The position numbers and the translations under genes are program-made. From a virus: a stretch of DNA of 64,000 nucleotides. The DNA lies in the IMG/VR virus record IMGVR_UViG_3300027586_000002, positions 32,001 to 96,000 of that record. One strand, 5' to 3'. A model generated the notes under the pieces. That model searched no databases. It was not told the DNA's origin and saw nothing but the letters and a program-made list of their open reading frames with translations. This document shows positions 1,491-21,864 of the stretch, piece by piece (the stretch's first letter is position 1; each line of letters begins with the position of its first letter).

Positions 1491-1983
1491 GTATATAAGG
1501 TTTGCTAAGAAAACTATTCCTTATTACAAAGGCAGCGAAAAGCTTGAAGAGGCACTGGACAAAGCTGAAATATTGTGTGAAGGAAAAGACCCGGTATTGT
1601 GGGTTCAGGCGCAATACCGCTATAAGCCAAAAGATGAGTTTTACCCAAATAGCTTACATTATAGAAATGGCACACAGAATTATATAAAATATTTAAACAG
1701 CGCTTCAACAGAGGAAGACATGCTGTTCCAGGTACAACTACAGTATTTAAACAGTGCAGTAGAGAAGACAGGCAGATCTGATTTGGAAGTACTTTCAGAC
1801 ATCAATTTAGATTTTAAGCCGTGGTTTCGTGTGTTAATGACCAGGGAACCTGATGAGGAGCTTTTACAAAGATATGGTGCCGAGGCCAAAGACTGCATTG
1901 AACAGATACCAAAAATAAAAGCATTGTTAAAAAGAAACAATGTGAACCTAACTCGTTTATATGGAAAAGAACTTAATGGATAG
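1450..1983 (+). CDS. hypothetical protein between primase and helicase
   Basis: Tight operon packing; no recognised motif. Confidence 0.65.
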   Translation: MGYQKTAREMMRDEYIRFAKKTIPYYKGSEKLEEALDKAEILCEGKDPVLWVQAQYRYKPKDEFYPNSLHYRNGTQNYIKYLNSASTEEDMLFQVQLQYLNSAVEKTGRSDLEVLSDINLDFKPWFRVLMTREPDEELLQRYGAEAKDCIEQIPKIKALLKRNNVNLTRLYGKELNG

Positions 1984-3361
1984 CTCTGATTATTACGAGT
2001 TAATGCTCAGGCATTTGATTTGTGATTCAGAACTGTATAAAAAAGCTTTAAAGCTAGGCGTTACAGCTGACGACTTTTTAAGCAGCAGTGTTGGAGGCAT
2101 ACTAATATACAAGATTTTTGCTGAGATAGCTTTTGAGACTAACGCAACACCAATAAGCAAAGATCTATTCTTGCTGAAGCTAAAAGAGAAATTTGACAAG
2201 ACTCCATCTTTGGAAGGCAGAGCGGAATCTGCTGGAGAGCTATACGAGAAAGTATATGCGACTACTTTAGATTCAAAGTATGCAACAGATAATCTGAGGT
2301 TGTTTGTAAAGCGCCGACGCCAGCTAAAGGCCAAGCAAGAGCATTCAACTAATGAGGATGCGTTATTAACCGCGCTTAGTAACATAGAAAAAGACCTCTC
2401 TGGCAAGGAAGTGGCTGCGCTTGTAACAATTGACTACCCATTTAAGAAGTTACTAAAACAACAATTAACAAATTTAATACCTACAGGATTTGCCAGGATA
2501 GATACTGCTCTTGGCGGAGGAGGAATAGCTAAGGGAGAATACGGCTTGATAATCGGGTATACAGGTGGCGGTAAATCTGCCATGGCTGTTTGCATCGTCA
2601 GATCTAATGCCATACTTGGAAACAAGGCTGCATTTGTATCCATGGAAGAAACAACTGTCAATATCTCCAACAGATTGTACTCACAGGTGTTCAGGATTAA
2701 CTACTCTGACCTGCGCAGCGGTAAGGCTGGAATGGAGCTGGAACAACAGTTTAATGAAAACCCTGACAATCCACATAGAAGGTTGTTATCTGACAACCTG
2801 GCGTTGTTTGGCTTAAAAGAAGCTACTCCAATAACACCGGCAGCTATACTAGAGACACTTAGGAAACACTTTGATGATACAGGGTTTATTCCTGATGTCG
2901 TAGTTCTAGACCAGATGCAATTCATGGAGCCAAATGAAAAGAAGAAAAATGAAAGCTCATGGGATACTCAGGCCCGGCTTTCTCATGACTGCGATTGGTT
3001 GTCACATCAGACCATAGGAGGACAGCCGTTTGGATTGTGGGTCTTACATCAAGCCAAGGGCGGTAAGATGAGTAAGTTCTTTACCCATGCTGAGATATCA
3101 GGGTTTAAGGGAATTCTCCAGCCAGCCGATATAGCAATTGGTATAGGAAGAGAAGATCAAAAAAGCAAAGACTTCGGAATTTTCTCATTGAAGACCAGAC
3201 ATACTGCTGGCTTCGAAGTAGACTATGAAGGAGAACTTGAATACATGACGTTTAGAGATAGATTGGCGGGCACATTTGAAAACATAGAGGCATACCAGGG
3301 ACCCACGTCTAATCCTACAAGAGAAGAAATGCCTCATTTTAGAAATCCATTAATAGAATGA
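1961..3361 (+). CDS. dnaB: DnaB-like replicative helicase (start may be 1976)
   Basis: IPTGF..ID, Walker A GYTGGGKS, SMEE, VVLDQ, LKTRH. Confidence 0.9.
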   Translation: MEKNLMDSSDYYELMLRHLICDSELYKKALKLGVTADDFLSSSVGGILIYKIFAEIAFETNATPISKDLFLLKLKEKFDKTPSLEGRAESAGELYEKVYATTLDSKYATDNLRLFVKRRRQLKAKQEHSTNEDALLTALSNIEKDLSGKEVAALVTIDYPFKKLLKQQLTNLIPTGFARIDTALGGGGIAKGEYGLIIGYTGGGKSAMAVCIVRSNAILGNKAAFVSMEETTVNISNRLYSQVFRINYSDLRSGKAGMELEQQFNENPDNPHRRLLSDNLALFGLKEATPITPAAILETLRKHFDDTGFIPDVVVLDQMQFMEPNEKKKNESSWDTQARLSHDCDWLSHQTIGGQPFGLWVLHQAKGGKMSKFFTHAEISGFKGILQPADIAIGIGREDQKSKDFGIFSLKTRHTAGFEVDYEGELEYMTFRDRLAGTFENIEAYQGPTSNPTREEMPHFRNPLIE

Positions 3362-6252
3362 ACAAAGAACCAGAAGTTATATTATATGATAGCGCAGGTG
3401 AAGCTATTGTGGTTCCTCCAGTAGAAGTAAAGGTCGAACCTCCTTATGTTAAGAAGCTGTTTGAGCATCATCACATAAATGGCAAGACCTGGTTTCCACC
3501 GAGAGGTAATACCAAGGCAAAGCTGATGCTGATTTTATCACATCCTGCTTTTGATGATCTAAAGAATAGATATTTGCTAAGTGGCGAAAACGAGCAAGAA
3601 GTAAGAGATGCATTGGCTGAAGCAGGAATCGCCTCATCAGAAGTGTATATCACGTCAATGGTAAAGTATGGACTTGGTACGGGATCAAAGGCTTCGGCTA
3701 CAAGTATAGCGGATTGTTCTGAGATGCTGGACTATGAAATTAACCTTGTAAAGCCTAAGTTAATAATGACTCTTGGTGCTGAGCCATTTAAGCGCATCAT
3801 GAAGGCTAACAGGAAGCAAACCGACTCTATAGGTGAGATTATTGACAGCCCGTACGGTAAGCATTTGGCCAATTATTCACCAGGAATGATCACTACTATT
3901 GACCCAAAGAAAAGATCAGTATTCCGTGACATCTTTGAGCTTGCTGGTAGATATATAAAAGATAAATTAAACTATACTCCTTTTGAGTATATTTTAGTGG
4001 AAGACCCCGCAGTTAATCGTGAAATAGTCGCACATTACATTGCCAATAATAAGCTCACTGTGGCTTATGATGGCGAATGGGAGACTGAGCATAGAATGAC
4101 TGACGGTGAAGTAATGTATACTTTTCAATATTGCTGCGAACCTAACAAGGCAATTATATTGAATCTATCCACAGATGGAGTTAATGAAAATAGAGAGTTA
4201 TTGGATACAATGAAGCCATTGCTTGAACATCCTAAGGCCGACCGATTAGGTTGGAACATCCGTGTGGACGACAAGCGACTGACAATAAGAGGATTCAATC
4301 TACCTGACGAAACGTTAGGCTTTGATGGCATGAAAGCAATGTCATTTATAGACAGCCGTTGGGCTAAGGGGCTGGAAACTGGACTGAAGAAGTTCACTAA
4401 CTACGCTCCTTATTACAACGCACTGTTTAAGATAGAAGCTGACAACAAAATTGATGCCAAGGACCTTGTTAAGGTAAGGTCTATAAATCCAGATGCTTAT
4501 CATAATTACTGTGCGGGCGATGCTGTGACTACTTATACAGCATGTATTAACATGAGGAATTGGATGAATAAGAATCTGCCTAAAAAACAGCTAGATTATT
4601 ATTTCAACACTTACTTGCCGTTATCCAATTATTTTAAAGATCTGGAATTGTCAGGCATACCTATTGATGTAAAGGTGATGGAGGAAATCACCGAAAAATA
4701 TACTACCAAATACATTGAATTAAAGGGCAAGCTTGATGCTTTACTAAAGCCTTATGGTTACGACCAAGTAAGCTATAATGAGTATATAAAAGAGCATACA
4801 GATGAAGAAGCTAAGACAGCCAATATAAGAGAATCGTTCAATCCTGCATCATCAATGCAAAAGAAGGAGCTTTTATTTGAGGTGTTAGAGTTGACTCCAG
4901 CTTATTATACAAAAGCAGGCAAGGCGGCAAAACCAAGAGCCTGGTGGGTGAAGCAAAAAGAAAAAAATCAGGAGAAGTATAAGCCTTCTTCAAACAGCAA
5001 ATCTCTATCTGCTCTTAAGTTCTCGATTGTCAGCGAAATGGAGAAACCCAAGGTTAAAAATAAAGTTGGGTTGGAAAGTAAGCATGAGATAATCGAAACG
5101 TTACTAGACTTGAATCGTGTAAGTGTCTTTTCTCAGAAGTTTTTGAGTAAGAAAGGAACATTGTACGAAGAGGAGGAAACTCATGAAGACGGGGAGGACC
5201 CGTTAAAGTCTTCTTACTGGGCAGCCATGTGCAAAGACCAAAAGGTACGTCCTGACTTTTTTGAATGTCTAAACAACTTCAGAAGCAGCTCAAAGGTTAA
5301 TGTACAAAACCCAGCTTCTAAAGTATTAAGCCATATACCAAACATATTTGTTCCTGGTTACGACTTAATGTCTAAAGAAGACAAGGCAGCTAACGAGCAT
5401 TTGATACCTAGAAATATTAGACATATCTTTTATTCTGGTGACCCTGATTGGTATTGGGTTGAATGCGACGTGGCGGGGGCTGACTTGGCTATTGCTGCAT
5501 TTTTATCTCAAGACCCAGAATATATACATGATATCTTGAAGGGCGGGTTTCACACCACCAAGATGCGCGAATACTTCAATGACCCTACACTTGATAAAGA
5601 CAAAGATATATCAAGATATGTTATAGCTAAGTCGATTACATTCAGAGTAGCTTATACTTCTGAGCTTTTGTCAGCAGCAATGCCGATTCAAGCGGAAATC
5701 TATTCTGAAAGCGGCAACAATGTTGATATAAAGACATTAGAGTATGCCTTGAAGACTTGGGAAAGATATAAAAAATATATAGATTACCGTGAGAACTGTA
5801 AAGCACAGGTAAGAGACTATAACTTTATAGAGAATGCCAGAGGTATAAAGTATCATTTTGAGGAAACTGAAAACTTCGGTGTACTGGCCGGATGGTTAAA
5901 CGAATCTTTGGCTTATCCAATAGCCAGCGAGTTAGCATTGTTTATCTGGGATGTGTCCGTTGCCACAAGGCAGCAGTTCATCAAAGACAAGGTTTGGATG
6001 AAATACGTCAAACCTGTAAACTCTGTTCACGATGCTGCTTATTGGATAATTCATAAGGACCTTATGAAGGACGACTACTTCCAAGAGGTGTGCAAGCACT
6101 ATTTTACACAACATTGTAGAATAGCAACTGGCGACCGTCTAGGTATGGAGATGAAGATTGCTGACCGCTGGAAAGCGGACAAGAAACACACTGTATTTAG
6201 TAAAGAAACAGTTTGGGACTTTAAGAATCATCATTGGAAATGGAAAGATTAA
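3358..6252 (+). CDS. polA: family A DNA polymerase with N-terminal family-4 UDG-like domain and 3'-5' exonuclease
   Basis: UDG4-like 'PPRGN..AKLM...YITSMVK...C...L..EI.LVKP..I.TLG'; exo DGEW/YCAGDA; motifs A (ECDVAGADL), B (R..IAKSITF..Y), C (VHDA). Confidence 0.9.
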   Translation: MNKEPEVILYDSAGEAIVVPPVEVKVEPPYVKKLFEHHHINGKTWFPPRGNTKAKLMLILSHPAFDDLKNRYLLSGENEQEVRDALAEAGIASSEVYITSMVKYGLGTGSKASATSIADCSEMLDYEINLVKPKLIMTLGAEPFKRIMKANRKQTDSIGEIIDSPYGKHLANYSPGMITTIDPKKRSVFRDIFELAGRYIKDKLNYTPFEYILVEDPAVNREIVAHYIANNKLTVAYDGEWETEHRMTDGEVMYTFQYCCEPNKAIILNLSTDGVNENRELLDTMKPLLEHPKADRLGWNIRVDDKRLTIRGFNLPDETLGFDGMKAMSFIDSRWAKGLETGLKKFTNYAPYYNALFKIEADNKIDAKDLVKVRSINPDAYHNYCAGDAVTTYTACINMRNWMNKNLPKKQLDYYFNTYLPLSNYFKDLELSGIPIDVKVMEEITEKYTTKYIELKGKLDALLKPYGYDQVSYNEYIKEHTDEEAKTANIRESFNPASSMQKKELLFEVLELTPAYYTKAGKAAKPRAWWVKQKEKNQEKYKPSSNSKSLSALKFSIVSEMEKPKVKNKVGLESKHEIIETLLDLNRVSVFSQKFLSKKGTLYEEEETHEDGEDPLKSSYWAAMCKDQKVRPDFFECLNNFRSSSKVNVQNPASKVLSHIPNIFVPGYDLMSKEDKAANEHLIPRNIRHIFYSGDPDWYWVECDVAGADLAIAAFLSQDPEYIHDILKGGFHTTKMREYFNDPTLDKDKDISRYVIAKSITFRVAYTSELLSAAMPIQAEIYSESGNNVDIKTLEYALKTWERYKKYIDYRENCKAQVRDYNFIENARGIKYHFEETENFGVLAGWLNESLAYPIASELALFIWDVSVATRQQFIKDKVWMKYVKPVNSVHDAAYWIIHKDLMKDDYFQEVCKHYFTQHCRIATGDRLGMEMKIADRWKADKKHTVFSKETVWDFKNHHWKWKD

Positions 6253-7548: not shown

Positions 7549-8283
7549 ATGTTAAAATTATCAAATAATAGCAAAACCAAATTCAAGTCATGTCATTTAA
7601 ATACCTTCGGTTTGATGTTCGGCCCCGAGGAAGCTGGAGGCACCTGTCCAGGTGCTACCAGCGGGCCAGGTGGATGTATTTCGCTTAAAAAATTAGGCGG
7701 TAAAGTTCGAACTTGCTATATGGATAAGCTTGTAAAGGCTTATCCCGCGCTAGGTAAAGTACTAACACACAATACAGATATCTTAAAAAACAAAACGGTT
7801 GATGAAATGGTAGTAATACTAAGATTGACCGTCTTGCATTTTATAGAAGAGAGTGACAATACAGACCTATATTTCCGTCTGCATTACTCTGGAGATTTTT
7901 TCTCAATCGATTATGCTAAGGCATGGAGTATAGTTATAAAAGAGTTTAAACAGGTACAGTTTTGGGTATACACCCGATCTTTTATAGACGAACTAAATGT
8001 CTTGCCGTTTTTGGTTGATAACGATAATTTGACCCTGTTTCTATCAGTAGATCCTGTTAATAAAGAACTGGGGTTTAAAGCATATGAACCTTACAAAGAT
8101 AAAAAAAATGTAGGGTTAGCTTGGATGGGAAATACGAAACCAGAAAGTTATAGATGGGTTACTTGCCCTGAAACTTCTGGTAAAATAAGTAATAAACCCA
8201 ATATGGGGGCTTGTGGAAAATGCAGGCTGTGTGTTGACAATTACAACCACAAAGTCAAAAATATACAATTTTTGATACATTAA
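7549..8283 (+). CDS. GP88-like Cys-rich (radical-SAM-like) phage protein
   Basis: TCPGA..C...CY, FRLHYSGDFF, FWVYTR, CP...CGKCRLC. Confidence 0.75.
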   Translation: MLKLSNNSKTKFKSCHLNTFGLMFGPEEAGGTCPGATSGPGGCISLKKLGGKVRTCYMDKLVKAYPALGKVLTHNTDILKNKTVDEMVVILRLTVLHFIEESDNTDLYFRLHYSGDFFSIDYAKAWSIVIKEFKQVQFWVYTRSFIDELNVLPFLVDNDNLTLFLSVDPVNKELGFKAYEPYKDKKNVGLAWMGNTKPESYRWVTCPETSGKISNKPNMGACGKCRLCVDNYNHKVKNIQFLIH

Positions 8284-8299
8284 ATGCCGGTAATAAAAT
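8272..8299 (+). promoter_or_regulatory. sigma70-like promoter giving probably leaderless Ubl mRNA
   Basis: TTGATA-N16-TAAAAT ending 5 nt before ATG 8305. Confidence 0.45.
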
Positions 8300-8304
8300 A
8301 GCCT

Positions 8305-9036
8305 ATGAAAACTGTAAAACTCAAAATCTGCAACGAACACGGTGACACCCAAAAAGAAGTCACTCAGACTGCTGCAGTTGAAGAAATCATAAATGAACAT
8401 TTTAAAAATGGACGCTGGGTCTACGTTGGTTCTAACGCAGTAAGCTTTACTGCTTCAAACCCAACAGACAGCAAGTTGGCAGCAGATCGCGCCGAAATTT
8501 CCAAGCTTCTTGACGATATGGAGAACCCGATGGTAATCATGACAGGGGATCTTGTGGGTGGGGCGACTAAAAGCAAGACCAAGTGCAAGTCACGCTCGGC
8601 AACGGCCGAGGGAACAAACGCGAAAAGTCTTAGCTCCGGCCGGTATCCTACCTCCTGCAAAAAAGTTGGTTGTGTAAAAAATGATGCGACTGGTCGGCCT
8701 ATTATTCAATTTGGGTATAAGCCTGCCTATCTTCCAGAAGGATTTGAGACCAAGGACCTTGGGGCAAGCACATCACTAAACTTTGGTTCAGGTTCTTCAG
8801 TGACGTTGACCCGTGGGCCTCTGTCTAAGGTATTCAACTCTCATCGCACACCGCAGCTTGCGGTTAGCGTGCAGATGATTGGCGGACAAGAAACAGTTAA
8901 TGTTATGGTCACCGACTACAAGGGCTCTCTTGCTCGTTTGAAGAGGCACCTTGGCTTCATCTCTGCGTCAATCAATGAGGTGCTAGACGACGAAGTAGTT
9001 ACCCGCGCTTATATGCCTGGCAGCAGGATATTCTAA
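8305..9036 (+). CDS. ubiquitin-like (beta-grasp) domain ending LVGG at residue 86, fused to 157-aa C-terminal extension
   Basis: N-terminal strand KTVKLKI, 'VIMTGDLVGG' then low-complexity linker; upstream of JAB and ThiF genes. Confidence 0.65.
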   Translation: MKTVKLKICNEHGDTQKEVTQTAAVEEIINEHFKNGRWVYVGSNAVSFTASNPTDSKLAADRAEISKLLDDMENPMVIMTGDLVGGATKSKTKCKSRSATAEGTNAKSLSSGRYPTSCKKVGCVKNDATGRPIIQFGYKPAYLPEGFETKDLGASTSLNFGSGSSVTLTRGPLSKVFNSHRTPQLAVSVQMIGGQETVNVMVTDYKGSLARLKRHLGFISASINEVLDDEVVTRAYMPGSRIF

Positions 9037-9063
9037 TTGCTTACAGCTGTAAGCTTCAATAAC

Positions 9064-9098
9064 AAAGCCTGCTCAGGTTAACTGAGCAGGCTTTATTT
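9064..9098 (+). terminator. intrinsic terminator after Ubl gene
   Basis: AAAGCCTGCTCAG-GTTAA-CTGAGCAGGCTTT-ATTT perfect 13-bp stem. Confidence 0.75.
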
Positions 9099-9117
9099 AC
9101 TAGTATTATCTCAAATT

Positions 9118-11100
9118 ATGCAATACACAGAATTTAAAAAATACGCCAAGTTATATGAATCATTACATAAAAATGAGCTCAAGTTTAATATAAATTTTAT
9201 CACTATACCGAGCTACATGATTAGCGAAACGAATAATCCATGTAACACTCTAATGGTTCCGAAGTTTCTTGAAGTAGATAAGCTATCATCTATAGCTGAT
9301 ATATTTCAGAACCTGCACGCCCCTGTACCTAGAAGTTATATGGAGCTAGGCACAGCAGCTAAAAAACTTGTGTGCGGCCTGCCGATGATGACCTCCAATG
9401 CCTCCGCTGAAAAGGTAACTTCTGAACTGGCCAAAAGTCCTAATTCTCCAGTTAAATATTTTTCAGCGGCGCTGGATAAGAAATATCTCAATAACATTAA
9501 TTTATCAAGTTATGGTCTATTTGATTTTAGGCATATCTATTTAATAAAAGCACCTCCATTGGAACAAATGGAAAAGGATAAGACTTACAGGTTGTTAACT
9601 GACTCCGGAAGTAATGTAATAGCCTGTGTAGATCATAGCCATAAGCTCTATAAGTATCTAGATAAAGGGCATGTGCTTGTTTTTGCACCCGACAAAAAAG
9701 CCGAAGTTCCTTATATTGTGACCAATCAGCTTACCTTGGATGTTTGTTGTTTAATTGGGTTATATCAAATTTACTCTGATAAAATATCAGAAGTCTTACA
9801 AGATGGAATATTTCTAAGAGCCGGCGACGCAAGGATTGCTTTATTTAAAGCGGAGAAGGCTTTGCCAGATAGATTCCACACTGAGTATCAAAAGCTTAAA
9901 GCCGGTATACTTAAAGATTTTGAGAACAGTGCTCAAGCTATAACACTTAACAAGCTTCAAAGAGGTGAGTTAACCGATATAGTTCTTAATGACATCAAGA
10001 TTAGAAAAAACAAAGTTGAATACGAAAACGTTTCAATTGAGTCAGACTTGCTAGGAGAAAATGTCTTTAATAAGCTGGATGGTACAGCGCAGTTCAACAT
10101 ATACGACATTCTTACTATCCTTGCCAATGACACTGAAAACTGGCTTGGAACTCGTCCAACAACTAATCATATAGGTGAAAATGGTAGAATGAATCAAGCT
10201 ATGCGCTTTGACAAAAACTATTCCAGGACTATTAAAGTCAATGGAATGGAAATAGTGGCCTCTGTCAAAGATACCTGTTCTGCACGTTATGTTAATGGAA
10301 TAAGAATCAATCATAACGAAATAGCTAGGGTTCTTAACAGGGCTACATGCTATCATGATATTAACCAGTATAATTTGTTTCTAAAAGAAGTGAATAAACT
10401 TTCATTGGCTGCACACGACCTCTTGATAAACGGCCAGACTGTAAAGCTAAACCAATCCGCATATGATGACTACCATGCAGCTAAGGGTGGTGTATCACAG
10501 CCTAAGTTCAAATATAGCAGAGGCAACGATGGTGAATATCTATTACATGTTGGAGACAATGATAAAGTTAAACTACATAGGTTTGTAACTTTCCTTCATG
10601 ACATAGCAGCATTAAACCTCAAAGCTAATAATGGCTATATAGGATATGGTCATCCTGACCAAAATGAGTTTAAACACAGGGATGCAAATTGGTTAAAAGC
10701 CAAAATAACAACTCTTATATTACACCACTCGGTTAAGTCACAAAAAGATAACCCAACTATAAAAATACCTGATTTTAAAGATTACTTTAAATGGATTAAA
10801 GACACCCAGGCTCTAGCCGAACTAAAGGCTAAGAAACTTTTAGAAGACACTATGCTCATGGTTGGTGCAACCCATGCCTATCAGGGAGATATGGAAGGCT
10901 ATGAAGTTAAAGGCAACATTAAAACATATTTTATAGATAAGAAGACTAACCGTGTATTTGATACCAAATCAAAGCAAAACATCTGCATCGTCAATGGCAA
11001 GGCCGAGATGGGAATAGGGGCTGACGCAGTTGTCGCATTACTACTTGCTTTGAAGAATGACAGCAGGAGAGTAGACGCGATACAAACATTGAAATTATGA
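9118..11100 (+). CDS. 660-aa protein of Ubl cluster; candidate E2-like/ligase with C-terminal ICIV cysteine
   Basis: Between Ubl and JAB, overlaps JAB start (ATGA); 'QNICIV...D..VALLLAL.ND'. Confidence 0.5.
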   Translation: MQYTEFKKYAKLYESLHKNELKFNINFITIPSYMISETNNPCNTLMVPKFLEVDKLSSIADIFQNLHAPVPRSYMELGTAAKKLVCGLPMMTSNASAEKVTSELAKSPNSPVKYFSAALDKKYLNNINLSSYGLFDFRHIYLIKAPPLEQMEKDKTYRLLTDSGSNVIACVDHSHKLYKYLDKGHVLVFAPDKKAEVPYIVTNQLTLDVCCLIGLYQIYSDKISEVLQDGIFLRAGDARIALFKAEKALPDRFHTEYQKLKAGILKDFENSAQAITLNKLQRGELTDIVLNDIKIRKNKVEYENVSIESDLLGENVFNKLDGTAQFNIYDILTILANDTENWLGTRPTTNHIGENGRMNQAMRFDKNYSRTIKVNGMEIVASVKDTCSARYVNGIRINHNEIARVLNRATCYHDINQYNLFLKEVNKLSLAAHDLLINGQTVKLNQSAYDDYHAAKGGVSQPKFKYSRGNDGEYLLHVGDNDKVKLHRFVTFLHDIAALNLKANNGYIGYGHPDQNEFKHRDANWLKAKITTLILHHSVKSQKDNPTIKIPDFKDYFKWIKDTQALAELKAKKLLEDTMLMVGATHAYQGDMEGYEVKGNIKTYFIDKKTNRVFDTKSKQNICIVNGKAEMGIGADAVVALLLALKNDSRRVDAIQTLKL

Positions 11101-11612
11101 CTGAATCATTAAAGCTAGCATTAGACGAAGCCATGGCCTACGCCGCCCCATTTATAGAAATGGAGTGCGGCGGGGTCATACTTAAATCAAAAGAAGCAGA
11201 GGAGTATAAGTTCATCCCACTTCTTAATAAGCATAAAGACACAGCTAAATCAGCCGGGCTTTATGAAGTAGACAGAACAGACTTTGGTAAACAAGTTATA
11301 CCCTTACTAACATCTGGATATAATAACTACGCAAGCTTTCATACACATCCTATTGGGTGTGATACCAATCCAAGCTCCATAGATTTTACAAAACTGTTTA
11401 AAGGATTTCCAACCAATTTTATATTCTCGCCATCAACTAAAGCCTTGAGCCAATATGATTTTGTCCCTGGTACTACCATGGAGGAGATTTTTGGTAGCGG
11501 CAAAGGTGGGGAAAATACCTTATTGTTTGTTGAAAATTTAGAAGATAAGTTAGATGGACCTAAAATTGAATCGGCTTGGAACTTAACTAAACTACGCAAT
11601 GAGCAAACTTAA
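11097..11612 (+). CDS. JAB/MPN+ (JAMM) metallo-isopeptidase
   Basis: ECGG...FHTHP......PSSID = E-HxH-S-D JAMM motif. Confidence 0.85.
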   Translation: MTESLKLALDEAMAYAAPFIEMECGGVILKSKEAEEYKFIPLLNKHKDTAKSAGLYEVDRTDFGKQVIPLLTSGYNNYASFHTHPIGCDTNPSSIDFTKLFKGFPTNFIFSPSTKALSQYDFVPGTTMEEIFGSGKGGENTLLFVENLEDKLDGPKIESAWNLTKLRNEQT

Positions 11613-12192
11613 AATAGCAATAGCTGGAGCAGGAGGCATTGGTGGCTATGTGGCAGGTCAATTATATGAATACGGGCTTAACCGTAGGCAATTTGATTTT
11701 GCTGGCATGGACATAACTGTGTATGACGACGACACAGTTGATGCCTCCAATCTTTTACACCAGAACTTCTCAGAAGCTGATCTGGGGCAAAAAAAAGCGA
11801 AATTGATTGCCGACCGGTATTATCTAACAGCAGAGCTTAACAGAATGACCGTAGAGGACTTTGCTAAGTATGATGTGATATTTTGTTGTGTAGATAATAT
11901 GGTATTCAGGAAAAAGCTTTATGAGTATGGTTGGGCTCACCCTAATAATATTTTCTGGATTGATGGGCGTTGCTCCAGCCGAAATATAGGGTTGTTCAAC
12001 TCACAACTAGGCAGGAATGAACTTTCATCTGAGTTAAATGATAGCGTTGCTTCTGGAGGATGCCTATTGGCTCATGATAAAGAGGCCAAAGTTTCACATG
12101 TTACGCCCTTGACAATCGCCAGCATGATGACGCAAGCTTTCTTGAATTACTTGCGTAAGGAAGGTACTGGCAAAGTAAAATTATATCTATAA
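11599..12192 (+). CDS. ThiF/MoeB/E1-like adenylyltransferase
   Basis: GAGGIGG, DDDTVDASNLLHQ, CVDN...R, WIDGR, GGC. Confidence 0.9.
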   Translation: MSKLKIAIAGAGGIGGYVAGQLYEYGLNRRQFDFAGMDITVYDDDTVDASNLLHQNFSEADLGQKKAKLIADRYYLTAELNRMTVEDFAKYDVIFCCVDNMVFRKKLYEYGWAHPNNIFWIDGRCSSRNIGLFNSQLGRNELSSELNDSVASGGCLLAHDKEAKVSHVTPLTIASMMTQAFLNYLRKEGTGKVKLYL

Positions 12193-12476
12193 TGATTGGA
12201 ACATTGGCTAGTAACAACAAAGCCATTTTAGAGAAGATCTTGATGAAAAAGTTGAGCCTTATAGCGAAAGCTGTGGGGCTCAACCTTCCAGAATGGGATA
12301 TTGATAAATCTCTTTATCTTGCAATAAGAAAGTCTAATAAGTTGACTAGTGCTGCAATAACGTGTATTGAATACAGTGCAATTATTGAAGCCGCAACATT
12401 GATGAAATTAAAAATAAATCCGAACTTTTACTGGTTTAACAATCTAGAACAGTTCAATAACACAAAAAATAAATAA
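12192..12476 (+). CDS. hypothetical protein
   Basis: Coupled to ThiF stop (TAATG). Confidence 0.55.
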   Translation: MIGTLASNNKAILEKILMKKLSLIAKAVGLNLPEWDIDKSLYLAIRKSNKLTSAAITCIEYSAIIEAATLMKLKINPNFYWFNNLEQFNNTKNK

Positions 12477-13529: not shown

Positions 13530-14744
13530 ATGCCAATAGAAGAACTTATATCGTTAACAAAAAAGCAATTCGAAAAACAGAACAAGGACTCGGAGATGCA
13601 GTTCCTTTATGCCAAGGATGAACCTCCGGCATCAGGGCTGGTGATTGATAACCCACAACTAGAGTATATACTTGATAGACGGTTTCTGGCTTACGGTAGA
13701 TGCTACTTGTTCTATGGTAAAAAAGGTGCATCTAAAACCAGCTTGTTCTTAGATATAGCTAAAGCTTTTCAAAAACAAGGTGGTGATGTTATATGGATAG
13801 AAACAGAACATGCCATTGACCTTGATTTTGCCAAGAAACAGGGAGTCAATTTAGACAAGTTAGTATTGCTTCATCCTTCATCATTGGAAGAAGCTTTAAG
13901 CTTGGCTGAACAGATTGTTAGAAACATGCCTAAGGCTTATCCTGATGGCAATACACCGGTACTCATATGTCTGGACTCAATAGCTGGGTCAGTTACTGAG
14001 TATGAGGTAGATACATCACACAGCGTAAGAGACGTAAAACCAGGTGAGCATGCCAGGCTATTAAGCAGGTTCTATCGTGAGTTTGAAAGACCGCTTGCAA
14101 AGGAGCGTTGTATATTCTTAGCCCTAAACCAGCTTAAAGTATCTATAGGTGGCTTTGGAGGGTTTGGTGAAGAACCACCGGAATCCATGATTGGTGGCGA
14201 GGCTCCTAGATTTCATTCTACTTACCAGCTTAAGATAGTTAGGACTAAAGATCTGACTTACGAAACTGACAAGCATGAAAAGATTAAGATAGGTTCAAGA
14301 CACCAGATTACCTGCAAGCGTAACAAGCTTGGTAAAGAAGGTAATTCACAGAATGTAGAATTCGATTTGTATATCGACGGCGGCATTGACTGGTACGGTC
14401 CATTGGTTCGAAGAACAGCTAAATTCTATCCTGAAGTTATTAGTTCAGGAGGGGCAGGCTGGTATAATTGGAATGTACCGAACATTCATTATACTACTGG
14501 TGAAGGCGGCAACGAGCTTATATCCACAGAAGATAACTATAGAGAGCCAGACTTAGCCAGACTTATTAGCTCCAGCCCAGAAGCTAAGGAAGTTATTAGA
14601 AAGTGTTTAAAGATACCTGATCTACCTCCAGAGAAAGTAATCGCTCAGTTAGAAGTCGCCAGGTTGTCGAAAAGAAAAACCAAGAAAAGTCTTGAAGAAG
14701 AACCTGGAGTATCTAGACTAGTCGAGGAAGATCCAAGTGAATAA
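13530..14744 (+). CDS. recA: RecA/UvsX-like recombinase
   Basis: YGKKGASKT, WIETEHAID, LDSIA, ALNQL, GGEAPRF, KRNK. Confidence 0.9.
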   Translation: MPIEELISLTKKQFEKQNKDSEMQFLYAKDEPPASGLVIDNPQLEYILDRRFLAYGRCYLFYGKKGASKTSLFLDIAKAFQKQGGDVIWIETEHAIDLDFAKKQGVNLDKLVLLHPSSLEEALSLAEQIVRNMPKAYPDGNTPVLICLDSIAGSVTEYEVDTSHSVRDVKPGEHARLLSRFYREFERPLAKERCIFLALNQLKVSIGGFGGFGEEPPESMIGGEAPRFHSTYQLKIVRTKDLTYETDKHEKIKIGSRHQITCKRNKLGKEGNSQNVEFDLYIDGGIDWYGPLVRRTAKFYPEVISSGGAGWYNWNVPNIHYTTGEGGNELISTEDNYREPDLARLISSSPEAKEVIRKCLKIPDLPPEKVIAQLEVARLSKRKTKKSLEEEPGVSRLVEEDPSE

Positions 14745-15632: not shown

Positions 15633-16055
15633 ATGCCATCAGTAGTAGAATCAAAAACATTGTTTTATAAAGCAGGCGCAAGTGATAAGTTTTATCACAC
15701 GGAACTCTATAAGGTGTCAGATCAAGAATACTATATATTTGCATTCTATGGTAGAAGACCAATGGGTAGTGTCACACCTAATGTTTCGTTTAGGCTAAAA
15801 AACCACGCGCCGCTAACCAAGCCTGCCGCTTTTCTTGTATATGAGGACTTACTTTATAGTAAGACACAGCACAATTATTATGAATCAGAAGTCCCTCCAC
15901 AAACTAATTTAGAGTACATACATCAAAAGAGCAAACTTATACGCAATGTATGGCTTAATAACGTTGGAATAAGAACAGCAGCCAAGTCCAAAGATGAAAA
16001 ATTAATGGACAAGGTTATTCTTAAAGAAGAACCATTACGTCGAATTCAAATCTAA
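15633..16055 (+). CDS. WGR-domain protein
   Basis: SDKFY...FAFYGR...K...Y; ends RRIQI. Confidence 0.6.
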   Translation: MPSVVESKTLFYKAGASDKFYHTELYKVSDQEYYIFAFYGRRPMGSVTPNVSFRLKNHAPLTKPAAFLVYEDLLYSKTQHNYYESEVPPQTNLEYIHQKSKLIRNVWLNNVGIRTAAKSKDEKLMDKVILKEEPLRRIQI

Positions 16056-16056
16056 T

Positions 16057-16521
16057 ATGGTCGTCGAGAACACCGGCACAGCAGAATATATAGTAGTACA
16101 GAAGCTGGCGTCACACTTTAAAGTAAAGAAAGATGAGCTTTACAAGGAAGTCCGACAGCAACAAGAAGAAAGAGGAGACAAGCTGGTATATGCTCCCAGT
16201 TTGTATGAAAAGTACGACTTCTTTTTTAAGCTTAGATGCATACAAGCTCCAAAGTTAAACCTGGAAGACATACTAAACTATAAGAAGTTCATAAAGACAA
16301 AGATATACCAAGACTTTGTACAATATGAGCCAGATGATAAACATTGCTTCGCAATGGCTTTGGTTCTGGTTGGTACAGTATGGCTTATATATAGAAGCAA
16401 AGAAGTTTATGATGGGTCAGGAGCTATCATCCTAAACGACTCTGAAAACTTCTATAATTCCATCCGTATAACGCCTATTCAAAACTACTTGTCAGATGAA
16501 TTCTCACACAAAGAACAATGA
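16057..16521 (+). CDS. hypothetical protein
   Basis: Operon packing. Confidence 0.55.
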   Translation: MVVENTGTAEYIVVQKLASHFKVKKDELYKEVRQQQEERGDKLVYAPSLYEKYDFFFKLRCIQAPKLNLEDILNYKKFIKTKIYQDFVQYEPDDKHCFAMALVLVGTVWLIYRSKEVYDGSGAIILNDSENFYNSIRITPIQNYLSDEFSHKEQ

Positions 16522-17749
16522 CCCAGTTTTAGATATACAGAGATTCCTTTTTAATGGAGGAACTCTGGACCAGCTTAGAGAACAATATAAGTTAATAATA
16601 GTTGAACATGAAGATGGTAGAGTAATGTTTAATTATGATCAGATAGACTCTCCAAGAGGTGAAATGATATGCCAGGAATCTAGAGGGCTTATCTTGGAGA
16701 AAGGAACATGGGAACTAGTATCGCTAGGCTTTCATAGATTTTTCAACTCAGAAGAACTACCCTATGCGCACACACTTGATTTTAATTCTCAAGTAAGGGC
16801 TTTTCCAAAGATTGATGGTTCTTATGTATCAATGTATTACTATAAGGGCCAATGGAGGTTTTCTACTAGAGGTAGCATTGACGCATCTGGCAGTGTCGGA
16901 GACTTTCCGTTTACGTTTAAAGAGCTAATAGATAGCGTAAAGCCTAGTAACTTTACAGACTATTCATTACAAACTTCCGTAGATTTTACTTATATATTTG
17001 AGCTAGTCTCTCCGTATAACAAGATAGTGACCCCATATGAAAAGGCTGAGCTTATACTTATAGGGGCCAGAAAAGTAAGAGACACAGAATATTCATTGGC
17101 TGTTCCTATAGGCTTTGAGCTAGATTATAAATCACTCGGAGCAATAGCTATATATTTTGGCGTAAAGTTCTATGAAGGGGTAGACATATCTAATCTACTT
17201 GCGGTCATTAATCTTATAGCAAACATTAAGCCTACAGACGAAGGGTTTGTTGTGGTAGAACAGACTAACTCTGTAAGAGGGTTTAGAAGAGTTAAAATGA
17301 AGAACGCCTCATATGTAGCCCTTCATCATTTAAAGTCATCTGATGGTTGCAAGAATTTAGCTGTCATACTACAGAAGGATGAAGACTCAGAGGTAGCCTC
17401 CCTGTTACCAGAACTTAAGCAGCTATTAGATACAGCTAGAAATAAAATAGAACAATTAATTGTAGTATTAAATAATCAGTATGAGCTGGCCAACCACGTA
17501 GCAGATAAGGAGTTGGAGCCTAGAGCTAAGAGGAAAATATTTGCTGAGAATGCTCTAACATCTGCTGTTCCTGGTTTTCTATTTGAAAAGTATAATAAAC
17601 CAGCGCTAGGGTTTAGAGAGATAATTAGAACAGCGCAACCTGATAAGATAGCAGAGTTGATAGGGCTAAAAAACATAAAGCTATCTGTGTTTAATCAGAA
17701 GCAGGAGCGCACCCTCCCTCCCGCCCCACCGACCCCCATAGCTAGCTAG
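16496..17749 (+). CDS. RNA ligase 1 (T4 Rnl1-like)
   Basis: ESRGLI, RFFN, motif I KIDGS, FELVSP.NKIV, EGFVV, RVKMKN.Y. Confidence 0.85.
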   Translation: MNSHTKNNDPVLDIQRFLFNGGTLDQLREQYKLIIVEHEDGRVMFNYDQIDSPRGEMICQESRGLILEKGTWELVSLGFHRFFNSEELPYAHTLDFNSQVRAFPKIDGSYVSMYYYKGQWRFSTRGSIDASGSVGDFPFTFKELIDSVKPSNFTDYSLQTSVDFTYIFELVSPYNKIVTPYEKAELILIGARKVRDTEYSLAVPIGFELDYKSLGAIAIYFGVKFYEGVDISNLLAVINLIANIKPTDEGFVVVEQTNSVRGFRRVKMKNASYVALHHLKSSDGCKNLAVILQKDEDSEVASLLPELKQLLDTARNKIEQLIVVLNNQYELANHVADKELEPRAKRKIFAENALTSAVPGFLFEKYNKPALGFREIIRTAQPDKIAELIGLKNIKLSVFNQKQERTLPPAPPTPIAS

Positions 17750-20331: not shown

Positions 20332-21864
20332 ATGCCCAAGAATAACGAAGTAGAAGTAGCAGACCAGCCATCAACGCAACAAACAAGCCAGGCCTTCGCA
20401 CAGTTGGAAGCCATGGAAATATTAGCTAAAGCTCTGGCAAGGGCCCAAAGCACACCATTCAAAGACATCACCGTGGTTCGCACAGGTGATCAAATTATAC
20501 TGCCTGAAGGCATGTCCTACGCCGACGCCCATGTGTGGCTGAGGAAGAAGGAAGATGCTGAGGAGAGTGTTGTAGCTGTCCATGCAGAAATCCCATGCTA
20601 TCCGTTGGATGGTATGTTGGCGCTGTCTAAAGCGCTACAAAGGATATATGGGTTTACAAGTTTGGCTGGTACGCCGACTTTCTTCGGCCAGGAGTTTCCT
20701 CCTGTGATTGTGCAAGTCCCAACGGGCGTGCATACCTCTGAGCCAGCCATTTATGGACGCATCCAACCGCCAACATTAGAGGGCGGATACCTGCAGCCTG
20801 TCGTGGGAAAGGAACAGAAATTCACAATCTCTGGTCAGGTAAAACGCAAGTTCGAAAAGGACGTTGAGCGCATATTCCAGGTTACGAGAGAGATTCTCGC
20901 TAACAGCAGCATATATAAAGGCCAGGCGATCATGATAGATCTTTCTTATCTCAATCGCCCTAATCATGAGTTTAATCCTGCCAACGATGCACCAAAGTTC
21001 ATGGACCTTACAGGTGTGAGCGAAGACAAGCTCATCCTTAACAAAGGAACAAAGTTCAGCCTCACAACAAGCATATATACATTGCTTGAGCAATCAGAAG
21101 CCTGCAAGGCTAACGGCATTACACTAAAGCATGGAGCATTGTTCATGGGCCCTTACGGCACCGGTAAAACCATGACTGCGCGGGTAATAGCACACAAAGC
21201 TACGACCAATAAGTGGACATTCATATATCTAAAGCAGCCTGATCATATTGCACACGCACTAAAATTGGCTGAGCAATATTCTCCTGCGGTGGTCTTTGCA
21301 GAGGACATTGACCAGGTCACCAATGGAGAGCGCGATGATAAGCTAAACAACATCCTTAACACATTGGACGGTATTGACACCAAAGACAAAGCGGTCATTA
21401 CTATTCTTACAACCAATCATCCTGAAAAAATAAACCCAGGCATCCTTAGAGCCGGGCGCATAGACTCAGTGATACATATGGACGCGCCTGACAGTGAGGC
21501 TGCGGAAAAATTCGTTAAGGTTTATACAGACAATGGCAGGCTGTTGTCTCCTGATATTAATTTGGAGCCTATCGGTCTGGCTCTCGCTGGATTCGTGCCG
21601 GCATTTATATCTGAAGCCGTCCAGCGCGCTAAGCGCAGGGCAATTTACCGTCATGGGGCGGATATCGCAGGCAAAGTCAGCGAAGAGGATCTCTGCCTCG
21701 CCGCCGCCGAGCTAAAGAATCATATCAAGATGGTCAATCGTGTGCAGCCGGCTTCACATGCTGAAAACACACTTGCAGCTCTGAACACACTGCTGCGACC
21801 AGTTGCAAACTTGGTAAACGAAGCTGAGGATAGGCTCATAGATTCAATTGAGTCATCGAAATAA
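20332..21864 (+). CDS. AAA+ ATPase (classical clade, no protease domain)
   Basis: GPYGTGKT, FAEDID, TTNHPEKI...LRAGRID. Confidence 0.9.
   Translation: MPKNNEVEVADQPSTQQTSQAFAQLEAMEILAKALARAQSTPFKDITVVRTGDQIILPEGMSYADAHVWLRKKEDAEESVVAVHAEIPCYPLDGMLALSKALQRIYGFTSLAGTPTFFGQEFPPVIVQVPTGVHTSEPAIYGRIQPPTLEGGYLQPVVGKEQKFTISGQVKRKFEKDVERIFQVTREILANSSIYKGQAIMIDLSYLNRPNHEFNPANDAPKFMDLTGVSEDKLILNKGTKFSLTTSIYTLLEQSEACKANGITLKHGALFMGPYGTGKTMTARVIAHKATTNKWTFIYLKQPDHIAHALKLAEQYSPAVVFAEDIDQVTNGERDDKLNNILNTLDGIDTKDKAVITILTTNHPEKINPGILRAGRIDSVIHMDAPDSEAAEKFVKVYTDNGRLLSPDINLEPIGLALAGFVPAFISEAVQRAKRRAIYRHGADIAGKVSEEDLCLAAAELKNHIKMVNRVQPASHAENTLAALNTLLRPVANLVNEAEDRLIDSIESSK

What the first reader, a model, noticed from the sequence alone, without database searches (positions are those of the whole stretch)
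8272..12192. Phage-encoded ubiquitin-like conjugation system inside the replication block
Seen: four consecutive genes between DNA polymerase and SSB/RecA: a beta-grasp-sized domain ending LVGG (Gly85-Gly86, 8557-8562), a 660-aa protein with a C-terminal 'NICIV' Cys623, a JAMM protease (E-HxH-S-D) and a ThiF/E1 enzyme, the last three overlapping. No thiamine or molybdopterin genes are nearby. The Ubl gene has its own promoter and terminator, suggesting excess Ubl over enzymes. Known: E1+E2+JAB+Ubl sets perform protein conjugation in bacterial defence (CBASS Cap2/Cap3, Bil). Inference: a virus-side conjugation pathway in which the 660-aa protein is a divergent E2/ligase, modifying phage replication or host proteins or countering host Ubl-based defence.
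Basis: partly seen in the sequence, partly recalled or inferred. Interest (0 to 1): 0.88.

Follow-up and report, generated by a model that had tools for sequence, protein, structure and literature searches.

The report
Phage-owned ubiquitin-like tagging gene set
A whole clade of large uncultured phages carries, as a fixed part of its DNA-replication genes, a ubiquitin-like tag, a protease that trims it, an enzyme that activates it and a large new protein ending in an E2-like cysteine domain, a kit so far studied only as a bacterial anti-phage defence.

Summary
Genes 8305-9036, 9118-11100, 11097-11612 and 11599-12192 are, in order:
- a beta-grasp protein whose di-glycine is invariant;
- a 660-aa protein of a large unnamed family;
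- a JAMM/JAB peptidase;
- a minimal ThiF/E1 adenylase.

About 35 viral contigs were found in two independent ways, through E1 and through RecA. Every contig with enough upstream DNA has the same order: Ubl, 660-aa protein, JAB, E1, set between DNA polymerase and SSB/RecA. None lacks it.

In 22 of 27 homologues the Ubl ends 0-9 residues after GG. Two are tandem di-Ubl precursors. The window's 157-aa tail is a lineage-specific fusion.

The 660-aa protein folds confidently (pLDDT 91). Only its last ~100 residues resemble anything solved. That resemblance is to UBC/UEV/RWD (E2-type) folds, at low Z (3-5), with invariant Cys623 where an E2 carries its catalytic cysteine.

Most likely this is a phage-run Ubl conjugation pathway. 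The target is unknown, a sulfur-carrier role is not excluded, and no biochemistry exists.

I found no description of it in the papers searched. Earlier notes of this scan report similar cassettes on other phage DNA, including crAss-like phages.

The parts
7549..8283 (+). GP88-family protein (244 aa, Cys-rich). It is the conserved upstream neighbour of the cassette. A functional link is not shown.
   Evidence: Pfam PF17338, E 2.3e-26; phrog_1392. It lies 0.03-2 kb upstream of the Ubl gene in all loci with enough sequence.
8234..8299 (+). Two sigma-70-like promoter matches just upstream of the Ubl gene.
   Evidence: Both score 10 of 12. These are consensus matches only, and the region as a whole is not enriched over shuffles.
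8305..8562 (+). Ubiquitin-like beta-grasp domain (residues 1-86) ending in the invariant ...TGDLVGG. Predicted JAB cleavage and E1 activation site after Gly86.
8563..9036 (+). Tail after GG: a variable K/S/T-rich linker (residues 87-144) plus a conserved small alpha/beta C-domain (about 145-243). This is a lineage-specific fusion, presumably released by cleavage at GG.
   Evidence: The linker is variable and the C-domain conserved. The C-domain HMM hits only the window, L002 and L058. AF2 confidence for this part is low.
9064..9099 (+). 13-bp GC-rich hairpin plus T-rich tail between the Ubl gene and the 660-aa gene. Terminator- or attenuator-like.
   Evidence: Region folds at -31 kcal/mol, z -5.5, with 0 of 200 shuffles as stable. 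Structured spacers occur in 21 of 27 related loci.
9118..10773 (+). N-terminal about 550 residues of the 660-aa protein. Several confidently folded domains without a solved look-alike. Invariant R158, D182, C411 and G439.
   Evidence: AF2 pLDDT 91.1, pTM 0.78. Foldseek against PDB found nothing. The family has 473 representative clusters at E <= 1e-3. Invariant residues come from 126 sequences.
10774..11100 (+). C-terminal UBC/UEV/RWD-like (E2-type) domain, residues about 553-660, with invariant Cys623 (codon 10984-10986) in the loop between the fourth strand and the next helix.
11097..11612 (+). JAMM/JAB metallopeptidase (171 aa): E23, H82-x-H84, S93, D96.
   Evidence: Prok-JAB E 2.2e-5. The motif is invariant in 28 homologues. 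The gene is 39% identical to its counterpart in L002.
11599..12192 (+). Minimal E1/ThiF-type adenylase (197 aa): G10xGGxGG, D43-D45...S50NLLHQN, K66, D99, C125, C155.
   Evidence: Pfam ThiF E 7e-16. hhalign to E. coli MoeB gives 93% probability with the motifs aligned. The gene is 71% identical in L002. Invariant residues come from 26 homologues.
12192..12476 (+). 94-aa protein that overlaps the E1 stop codon. Conserved after E1 in at least 14 related loci. Possible further component; function unknown.
   Evidence: phmmer hits at E 1e-6 to 2e-9, directly downstream of E1. No Pfam, PHROG or NCBIfam match.

Best explanation
This is a phage-encoded ubiquitin-like conjugation pathway that forms a core part of the replication gene block of a clade of large uncultured phages.

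Proposed steps:
1. The Ubl is made as a precursor. In this phage it carries a 157-aa tail; elsewhere it carries 0-9 extra residues or is a tandem di-Ubl.
2. The JAB peptidase cuts after Gly86 and exposes the di-glycine.
3. The minimal, probably dimeric, E1 adenylates the terminal glycine and may take it onto Cys155.
4. The Ubl passes as a thioester to Cys623 of the E2-like C-terminal domain of the 660-aa protein.
5. The large N-terminal part of that protein, with a second invariant cysteine (Cys411), selects the target or relays the Ubl, like an E2-E3 hybrid.
6. The Ubl ends on a lysine of a phage or host protein that acts during replication or recombination.
7. JAB may also reverse the mark.
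8. The hairpin after the Ubl gene would give more Ubl than enzymes.

Shown here: the folds, the motifs, the invariance, the gene order and its universality in the clade.
Inferred: every chemical step and the target.
For: Ubl:
- Beta-grasp model with UBL, SUMO, ISG15 and PB1 matches.
- GG is invariant. It is terminal or followed by 1-9 residues in 22 of 27 homologues.
- L007 is a head-to-tail di-Ubl in which both units end in TGDLxGG, followed by a 3-residue cap. This is the polyubiquitin precursor pattern.

E1:
- Pfam ThiF hit.
- hhalign to MoeB gives 93% probability, with the Gly loop, Lys and Mg-Asp aligned.
- Cys155 is invariant and lies 56 residues after the Mg-Asp. The crossover-loop Cys of MoeB lies 57 residues after its Mg-Asp. 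This is my reading from known MoeB numbering.

JAB: the JAMM motif is invariant.

660-aa protein:
- High-confidence model.
- The C-terminal domain matches E2, UEV and RWD folds, including bacterial Cap2, Bub and Bil-type complexes.
- Cys623 and Cys411 are invariant across 126 sequences that are down to about 17% identical to the window's protein.

Gene order and coupling:
- The genes are translationally coupled.
- The order is fixed in about 35 contigs found through E1 and independently through RecA, with no locus lacking it.

Sulfur genes: no sulfur-mobilising or sulfur-accepting enzymes are in the 107-kb record.
Against: - The protein language-model search instead pointed, weakly, at plasmid replication initiators.
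- The E1 has His where E1/ThiF enzymes have the Arg of NLxRQ, and it lacks the zinc-binding C-terminal part.
- Ubl + E1 + JAB with a short tail after GG is also the signature of sulfur-carrier systems.
- No target, no thioester and no conjugate has been observed.
- The genome record is only about 52% complete.
Confidence: 0.55

Rival explanations
1. Sulfur-carrier system. The Ubl is trimmed by JAB, adenylated by E1 and converted to a C-terminal thiocarboxylate. It then donates sulfur to a nucleic-acid or cofactor modification made by the 660-aa protein (two invariant cysteines acting as a persulfide relay) and/or by the Cys-rich GP88 protein.
For: - Ubl-GG with 1-9 extra residues, plus JAB and a short ThiF-like E1, is the layout of CysO/Mec+, QbsE/QbsD and TtuB/TtuC-type systems (established knowledge; see also PMC1779556).
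- The E1 is MoeB-like.
- Two invariant cysteines are present in the 660-aa protein.
- Cys-rich GP88 is always nearby.
- The phage carries a tRNA array, according to earlier notes.
Against: - No rhodanese, cysteine desulfurase or PP-loop ATPase is in the 107-kb record, and the E1 has no rhodanese domain.
- The only recognisable fold in the 660-aa protein is E2/UEV/RWD-like.
- Tandem di-Ubl precursors are typical of conjugated modifiers, not of sulfur carriers.
- GP88 is separated from the cassette by variable genes.
Confidence: 0.15
2. E1-only tagging, as with archaeal SAMP/UbaA or Thermus TtuB/TtuC. The E1 alone conjugates the Ubl. The 660-aa protein is not an enzyme of the cascade but its main substrate, a Ubl-binding (UEV/RWD-like) adaptor, or a replication factor regulated by the tag.
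For: - UEV and RWD domains, which are non-catalytic, score as high as true E2s.
- There is no HPN motif.
- The language-model features lean towards replication initiators.
- The gene sits between polymerase and SSB/RecA.
- Prokaryotic E1-only conjugation is established for SAMPs and TtuB.
Against: - Cys623 is invariant over the whole family, down to about 17% identity to the window's protein. It sits exactly in the E2 active-site position.
- The helix-strand-helix order does not fit winged-helix initiators.
Confidence: 0.2
3. A counter-defence device. The cassette tags or de-tags host immune proteins, for example by reversing or jamming host Bil, CBASS or Bub-type conjugation, rather than serving phage replication itself.
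For: Host Ubl pathways act against phages (PMC11601596; PMC10097602). JAB enzymes can deconjugate.
Against: - Anti-defence genes are usually patchy and sit in variable regions. This cassette is present in every sampled member of the clade, at one fixed place inside the replication block.
- The E1 is its most conserved gene: 71% identity, against 35-46% for its neighbours.
- There are no PADLOC hits other than the E1 Rossmann motif.
Confidence: 0.07

Closest known systems
Bil systems (BilA Ubl, BilB E2, BilC JAB, BilD E1), bacterial anti-phage Ubl conjugation
   Same: Four parts: a Ubl with C-terminal glycine, an E2-type cysteine domain, a JAB/JAMM peptidase and an E1. There is no separate E3, and the E2 is thought to choose the target (PMC11601596).
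   Different: - Here the E1 is a single 197-aa adenylation domain without the IAD-AAD-CYS architecture.
- The E2-like domain is the last about 100 residues of a 660-aa protein with no other known domains.
- The set is phage-encoded and core to a replication block.
- There are no PADLOC hits to Bil models.
Type I Bub (6E.1) operons: BubAB (Ubl-E2 fusion), BubCD (JAB-E1 fusion), BubE
   Different: - Bub works through oxyesters and lacks catalytic cysteines. Here the cysteines are invariant.
- There is no DUF6527 protease.
- JAB and E1 are separate genes.
- The fused tail is not the E2.
Type II CBASS Cap2 (E1-E2 fusion) and Cap3 (JAB)
   Different: There is no CD-NTase substrate and no effector. 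A dedicated Ubl is present. E1 and E2 are not fused.
Sulfur-carrier systems (ThiS/ThiF, MoaD/MoeB, CysO/Mec+, QbsE/QbsD, TtuB/TtuC)
   Same: A beta-grasp protein ending in GG plus a few residues, a JAMM peptidase that trims it, and a short MoeB-like E1 (hhalign 93%).
   Different: - No sulfur donor or acceptor enzymes were found.
- There are no Zn-binding CxxC pairs and no rhodanese domain in the E1.
- An E2-like domain and di-Ubl precursors are present.
Lambda/T1 tail assembly proteins I and K (Ubl + JAB/NlpC)
   Same: It is the only phage Ubl-JAB pairing described in the papers I found. The Ubl is fused through a low-complexity linker to a small C-terminal domain and is predicted to be cut at the terminal Gly (PMC1779556).
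   Different: That system has no E1 or E2 and lies in the tail gene cluster. This one lies in the replication block and includes an E1.
Pfam DUF7737 and the PRTRC-system ThiF (TIGR03736)
   Same: These are the best family-level sequence matches: DUF7737 for the C-terminal domain (21 of 24 members, best E 6e-4) and PRTRC_ThiF for the E1 (E 2.2e-15).
   Different: Both are far below the curated cut-offs: 14 against 27 bits, and 56.7 against 144.75 bits. Neither family has a known function.

Membership tests
Ubiquitin-like beta-grasp modifiers (Ub/ThiS/MoaD superfamily) | beta-grasp fold | tested here: met
Ubiquitin-like beta-grasp modifiers (Ub/ThiS/MoaD superfamily) | Conserved C-terminal (di)glycine at the end of the domain, terminal or followed by a removable tail | tested here: met
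   GG is invariant in 27 distinct homologues. The tail is 0-9 residues in 22 of them. There are tandem di-Ubl forms in L006/L007 and long tails in the window, L002, L058 and L059.
Ubiquitin-like beta-grasp modifiers (Ub/ThiS/MoaD superfamily) | Covalent attachment to targets (isopeptide) or thiocarboxylate formation | not testable with these tools
   Needs biochemistry.
E1/ThiF/MoeB adenylating enzymes | Family profile match and nucleotide-binding Gly-rich loop, Lys and Mg-binding Asp | tested here: met
   PF00899 at 58.5 bits against a cut-off of 28.1. hhalign to MoeB gives 93% probability, with GxGGxG, K66 and D99 aligned. These residues are invariant in 26 homologues.
E1/ThiF/MoeB adenylating enzymes | Arg of the SNLxRQ motif | tested here: not met
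   The motif is SNLLHQN, with His54 invariant in 26 homologues. His54 aligns to the Arg of MoeB's SNLQRQ.
E1/ThiF/MoeB adenylating enzymes | Cysteine in the crossover loop after the adenylation core | tested here: inconclusive
   Cys155 (GCLL) is invariant and lies 56 residues after D99. The hhalign alignment to MoeB stops at residue 146, before this region. The equivalence therefore rests on spacing only.
JAMM/JAB metallopeptidases | E...HxH...S..D metal-binding and catalytic motif | tested here: met
   H82-T-H84-P, S93 and D96 are invariant in 28 homologues, and Glu is present in the EMECGGV motif. Prok-JAB scores 24.7 bits, just under the cut-off of 25. The L003 homologue scores 25.3 bits.
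UBC/E2 conjugating enzymes | UBC fold: one helix, a four-strand meander, then helices | tested here: inconclusive
UBC/E2 conjugating enzymes | Catalytic Cys in the loop after strand 4, before helix 2 | tested here: met
   Cys623 lies between strand 613-615 and helix 636-646. It is invariant in 126 sequences.
UBC/E2 conjugating enzymes | HPN motif upstream of the Cys | tested here: not met
   The sequence before the Cys is ...DTKSKQNICIV in the window and ...TKQYRCIVN in most relatives. There is no HPN. Whether the Asn in the window's KQN before the Cys substitutes for it is unknown.
Bil (BilABCD) | [quoted passage not shown] | tested here: not met
   The E1 is 197 aa with one adenylation domain. 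The BilD architecture is as described in PMC11601596.
Type II CBASS (Cap2/Cap3) | CD-NTase as the conjugated protein; E1-E2 fusion | tested here: not met
   There are no PADLOC hits except the first about 75 residues of the E1 to E1-E2 models. E1 and the E2-like domain lie in separate genes.
Bub (6E/DUF6527) | Cys-less E1 and E2 working through oxyesters; DUF6527 serine protease | tested here: not met
   Cysteines are invariant in the E1 and in the E2-like domain. None of the six proteins scanned matches a PADLOC or Pfam DUF6527 model.
Sulfur-carrier pathways (ThiS/MoaD/CysO/QbsE type) | Linked sulfur donor (rhodanese or cysteine desulfurase) and acceptor enzyme (ThiG, MoaE, CysM or PP-loop thiolase) | tested here: not met
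   No PF00581, PF00266 or PF01171 match occurs in the 107-kb record, while the control genomes ring. The record is about 52% complete and host enzymes could serve, so this weakens the reading but does not exclude it.
PRTRC system | PRTRC_ThiF equivalog score and the accompanying PRTRC A-F and ParB genes | tested here: not met
   TIGR03736 scores 56.7 bits against a cut-off of 144.75. No other PRTRC model matches the neighbouring genes.

The most novel reading that the evidence does not exclude
A lytic phage clade runs its own ubiquitin-like cascade as an obligatory part of genome replication. A giant E2-E3 hybrid would carry a two-cysteine relay (Cys623 then Cys411) and tag replication or recombination proteins, or host factors at the replisome. 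The Ubl would be made from polyubiquitin-like or fusion precursors. This would be a viral, replication-linked origin or parallel of ubiquitin signalling, outside cellular immunity.
Probability: 0.3. Interest if true: 0.9.

Novelty: new variant of a known kind. Interest (0 to 1): 0.75.

Why it matters
Prokaryotic Ubl, E1, E2 and JAB sets have so far been characterised as host weapons against phages (CBASS Cap2/Cap3, Bil, Bub). Here the same logic is owned by the virus. It is fixed in the replication block of a whole clade and uses a very large, otherwise unknown protein as the probable transfer enzyme.

If the pathway conjugates, three things follow:
- It gives a tractable minimal system: a 197-aa E1 and an 86-aa Ubl.
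- It shows that protein tagging is part of phage replication biology.
- It assigns a function to a family of about 470 sequence clusters and, by extension, to Pfam DUF7737.

The fusion and tandem precursors parallel eukaryotic ubiquitin gene organisation.

Tried and rejected
Searches for cultured relatives:
- The cassette DNA, the 660-aa protein, two distant family members and the DNA polymerase gave no match in 50,697 phage records.
- Only distant E1s (26-37% identity) appeared, in crAss-like and Xanthomonas/Erwinia jumbo phages.

Other searches that led nowhere:
- A word-based search for short Ubl homologues found none. They were recovered from the loci instead.
- Foldseek against PDB gave nothing significant for either model.
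- PDB sequence searches with the 660-aa family, its C-terminal domain, the E1 profile and JAB gave nothing useful.

Leads I rejected:
- The ESM Atlas features pointed at Rep3, RepC and RepA-type initiators (scores 0.80-0.94). I did not adopt this, because the helix/strand order of the domain is that of UBC/RWD folds, not of winged-helix domains.
- I recalled a link between DUF7737 and DUF4132/MolR and WGR proteins. It failed: E. coli YehI has no DUF7737 hit, its hhalign probability to the family is 0.5%, and the 140-aa protein at 15633-16055 has no Pfam WGR hit.
- The proteins next to the E1 in Xanthomonas phage PhiXhv-12 and in PhiCrAssBcn22 show no detectable homology to the 660-aa family.

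Technical failures:
- The search for related loci with the deep alignment A4 failed for lack of conserved stretches.
- Single distant members found no loci.
- Relatives cannot be drawn for a virus record.

Full report
**Where the window lies**

The window is bases 32001-96000 of a 106,940-nt IMG/VR virus record, estimated about 52% complete.

Genes around the finding all lie on the + strand:
- a Toprim primase (185-1147);
- a DnaB-like helicase (1961-3361);
- a UDG-PolA fusion (3358-6252);
- a 355-aa protein;
- a GP88-family protein (7549-8283);
- the four genes of the finding;
- a 94-aa gene (12192-12476);
- a 334-aa protein in the SSB position;
- a RecA/UvsX-like recombinase (13530-14744);
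- further recombination and repair genes.

So the setting 'inside the replication block' is right.

**The four genes**

E1 (11599-12192, 197 aa)
- It matches Pfam ThiF well above the cut-off. By hhalign it aligns to E. coli MoeB at 93% probability.
- The Gly-rich loop, the Lys and the Mg-binding Asp are in register. His54 stands where MoeB has the Arg of SNLQRQ.
- These residues, plus Cys125 and Cys155, are invariant in 26 homologues.
- The best NCBIfam match is the PRTRC-system ThiF, far under its cut-off. PADLOC Cap2 'E1-E2' models match only the first about 75 residues.

JAB (11097-11612, 171 aa)
- It scores just under the Prok-JAB cut-off.
- FHTHP, PS and D96 are invariant in 28 homologues.

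The 243-aa protein
- It has only three database clusters.
- Residues 1-86 and about 145-243 are conserved. The K/S/T-rich linker between them is not.
- AF2 models residues 1-80 at pLDDT 72-91 as strand-strand-helix-strand-helix-strand.

**The decisive comparative evidence**

An alignment of three E1s retrieved 41 viral loci. Of these, 29 carry E1s 47-58% identical to the window's.

HMMs built from the window's proteins show that these loci, with the metagenome locus L002 and with L003, have Ubl, a 660-aa family member, JAB and E1 in that order. GP88 lies 0.03-2 kb upstream. The only incomplete loci are those cut by a contig end.

The whole block from helicase to RuvC-like is syntenic.

A second sampling, seeded with RecA and therefore independent of the cassette, gave 38 loci. 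Every one with enough upstream DNA has the cassette. The only loci without it are cut by contig ends.

The cassette is therefore a core feature of the clade, not an accessory island.

**The Ubl C-terminus**

Across 27 distinct Ubl homologues the motif L[TS]GxLxGG is invariant.
- Three proteins end exactly at GG.
- Nineteen have 1-9 further residues, for example GGC* in L003.
- L006 and L007 are head-to-tail di-Ubls in which both units end in TGDLxGG, followed by 'SAR'.
- Long tails occur only in the window's close kin, in L002, in L058 (the same C-domain) and in L059 (a different tail).

The window's N-terminal domain aligns to the stand-alone L003 protein up to GG, at E 4e-17.

**The 660-aa protein**

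- A full HMMER search found 473 representative clusters at E <= 1e-3. None had a name in the ten clusters I looked up.
- In 126 aligned members, R158, D182, C411, G439, C623, D648 and T657 are invariant.
- AF2 with this alignment gives pLDDT 91.1 and pTM 0.78.
- Foldseek finds no solved relative. In BFVD it finds only three unnamed viral proteins.
- The exhaustive VIA search finds consistent matches for residues about 565-660 only, and about 35 of the 50 are UBC, UEV or RWD domains. They include VPS37A, Vps23 and Tsg101 UEV, Ubc9, UBE2E1, Ubc13, UBE2W and FANCL. The bacterial Cap2, BubCD-BubB-BubA and an E1-E2-Ubl complex also appear.
- The predicted order of elements is that of an E2: helix 553-582, four strands, a loop with Cys623, then helices from 636.
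- The same domain hits Pfam DUF7737 in 21 of 24 homologues, below its cut-off.
- The N-terminal about 550 residues have no recognisable relative.

**Expression signals**

- A 13-bp hairpin with a T-rich tail lies at 9064-9099.
- Comparable structured spacers follow the Ubl gene in 21 of 27 loci.
- The promoter matches before the Ubl gene are weak evidence.
- The 660-aa, JAB, E1 and 94-aa genes overlap. In about a dozen relatives one extra gene is inserted between the 660-aa gene and JAB.

**Alternatives**

- Sulfur-carrier role. This fits the Ubl + E1 + JAB trio. However, no rhodanese, cysteine desulfurase or PP-loop enzyme is found in the record. The E2-like domain and the di-Ubl precursors also argue for conjugation.
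- E1-only tagging, with the 660-aa protein as substrate or adaptor. This remains possible, because non-catalytic UEV and RWD domains score as well as true E2s.
- A counter-defence role. This is disfavoured by the core, fixed position of the cassette.

**Literature and earlier notes**

- The papers I could search describe phage Ubl-JAB pairs only in tail assembly (PMC1779556).
- They describe complete Ubl pathways only as bacterial defences (PMC11601596; list).
- Two jumbo-phage overviews do not mention such cassettes.
- Earlier AI notes of this scan report similar phage cassettes in many other genomes. They include crAss-like phages and one with a '690-aa Cys-rich protein'.
- I checked one point of those notes myself: a cultured crAss-like phage has an adjacent JAB-like gene and E1 gene inside its replication block. 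I found no homology between their neighbours and the 660-aa family.

**Verdict**

The best reading is a phage-owned Ubl conjugation pathway with a new giant E2-like protein (confidence 0.55). It is a new variant of a known kind of system. The target and the chemistry are untested.

Noticed in passing
L031:6682-8456 (same contig as L065): The E1 gene is split exactly inside its most conserved motif: exon 1 ends ...YDDDTV and exon 2 resumes ...KNLLHQNF. The insert is about 1.15 kb and encodes a 323-aa ORF with LAGLIDADG-like motifs (YADGC, VDGDGSF). It is probably a homing intron in the E1 active-site region.
   Followed up: partly
L006/L007:4727-5350 (= L049/L050:4946-5569): Tandem di-Ubl precursor: two beta-grasp units, each ending in TGDLxGG, followed by a 3-residue cap (SAR). 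This resembles polyubiquitin genes.
   Followed up: partly
window 12192-12476: A 94-aa gene overlaps the E1 stop codon and is conserved directly after E1 in at least 14 related loci. It has no family match. It may be a fifth component.
   Followed up: partly
window 3358-6252: The DNA polymerase A carries an N-terminal uracil-DNA-glycosylase-superfamily domain (PF03167, E 3e-12). tblastn found no match at E <= 1e-10 in 50,697 cultured phage records, so the lineage has no cultured relative in that set.
   Followed up: partly
L047 (Bacteroides phage PhiCrAssBcn22) 7229-9570; L048 (Xanthomonas phage PhiXhv-12) 5199-9449: Distant E1/ThiF genes (26-30% identity) also sit in the replication blocks of cultured crAss-like and jumbo phages. 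In the crAss-like phage the E1 directly follows a protein with a weak Prok-JAB hit. They are annotated as 'thiamine biosynthesis protein'.
   Followed up: partly
window 16496-17749: A T4 Rnl1-type RNA ligase (PF09511, E 1e-15) lies downstream of the recombination genes, in a phage that, according to earlier notes, carries a tRNA array.
   Followed up: no
window 20332-21864: A 510-aa AAA+/STAND-like ATPase (PF00004 E 3e-19; nSTAND3 E 3e-7) lies at the end of the + strand block.
   Followed up: no
L004, L008, L010, L018, L019, L020, L026, L029, L030, L031 and L003 (between the 660-aa gene and JAB): About a dozen relatives have a 590-970 nt insertion, one or two extra genes, between the 660-aa gene and JAB. 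In L003 these genes are 186 aa and 115 aa, with no family match.
   Followed up: no
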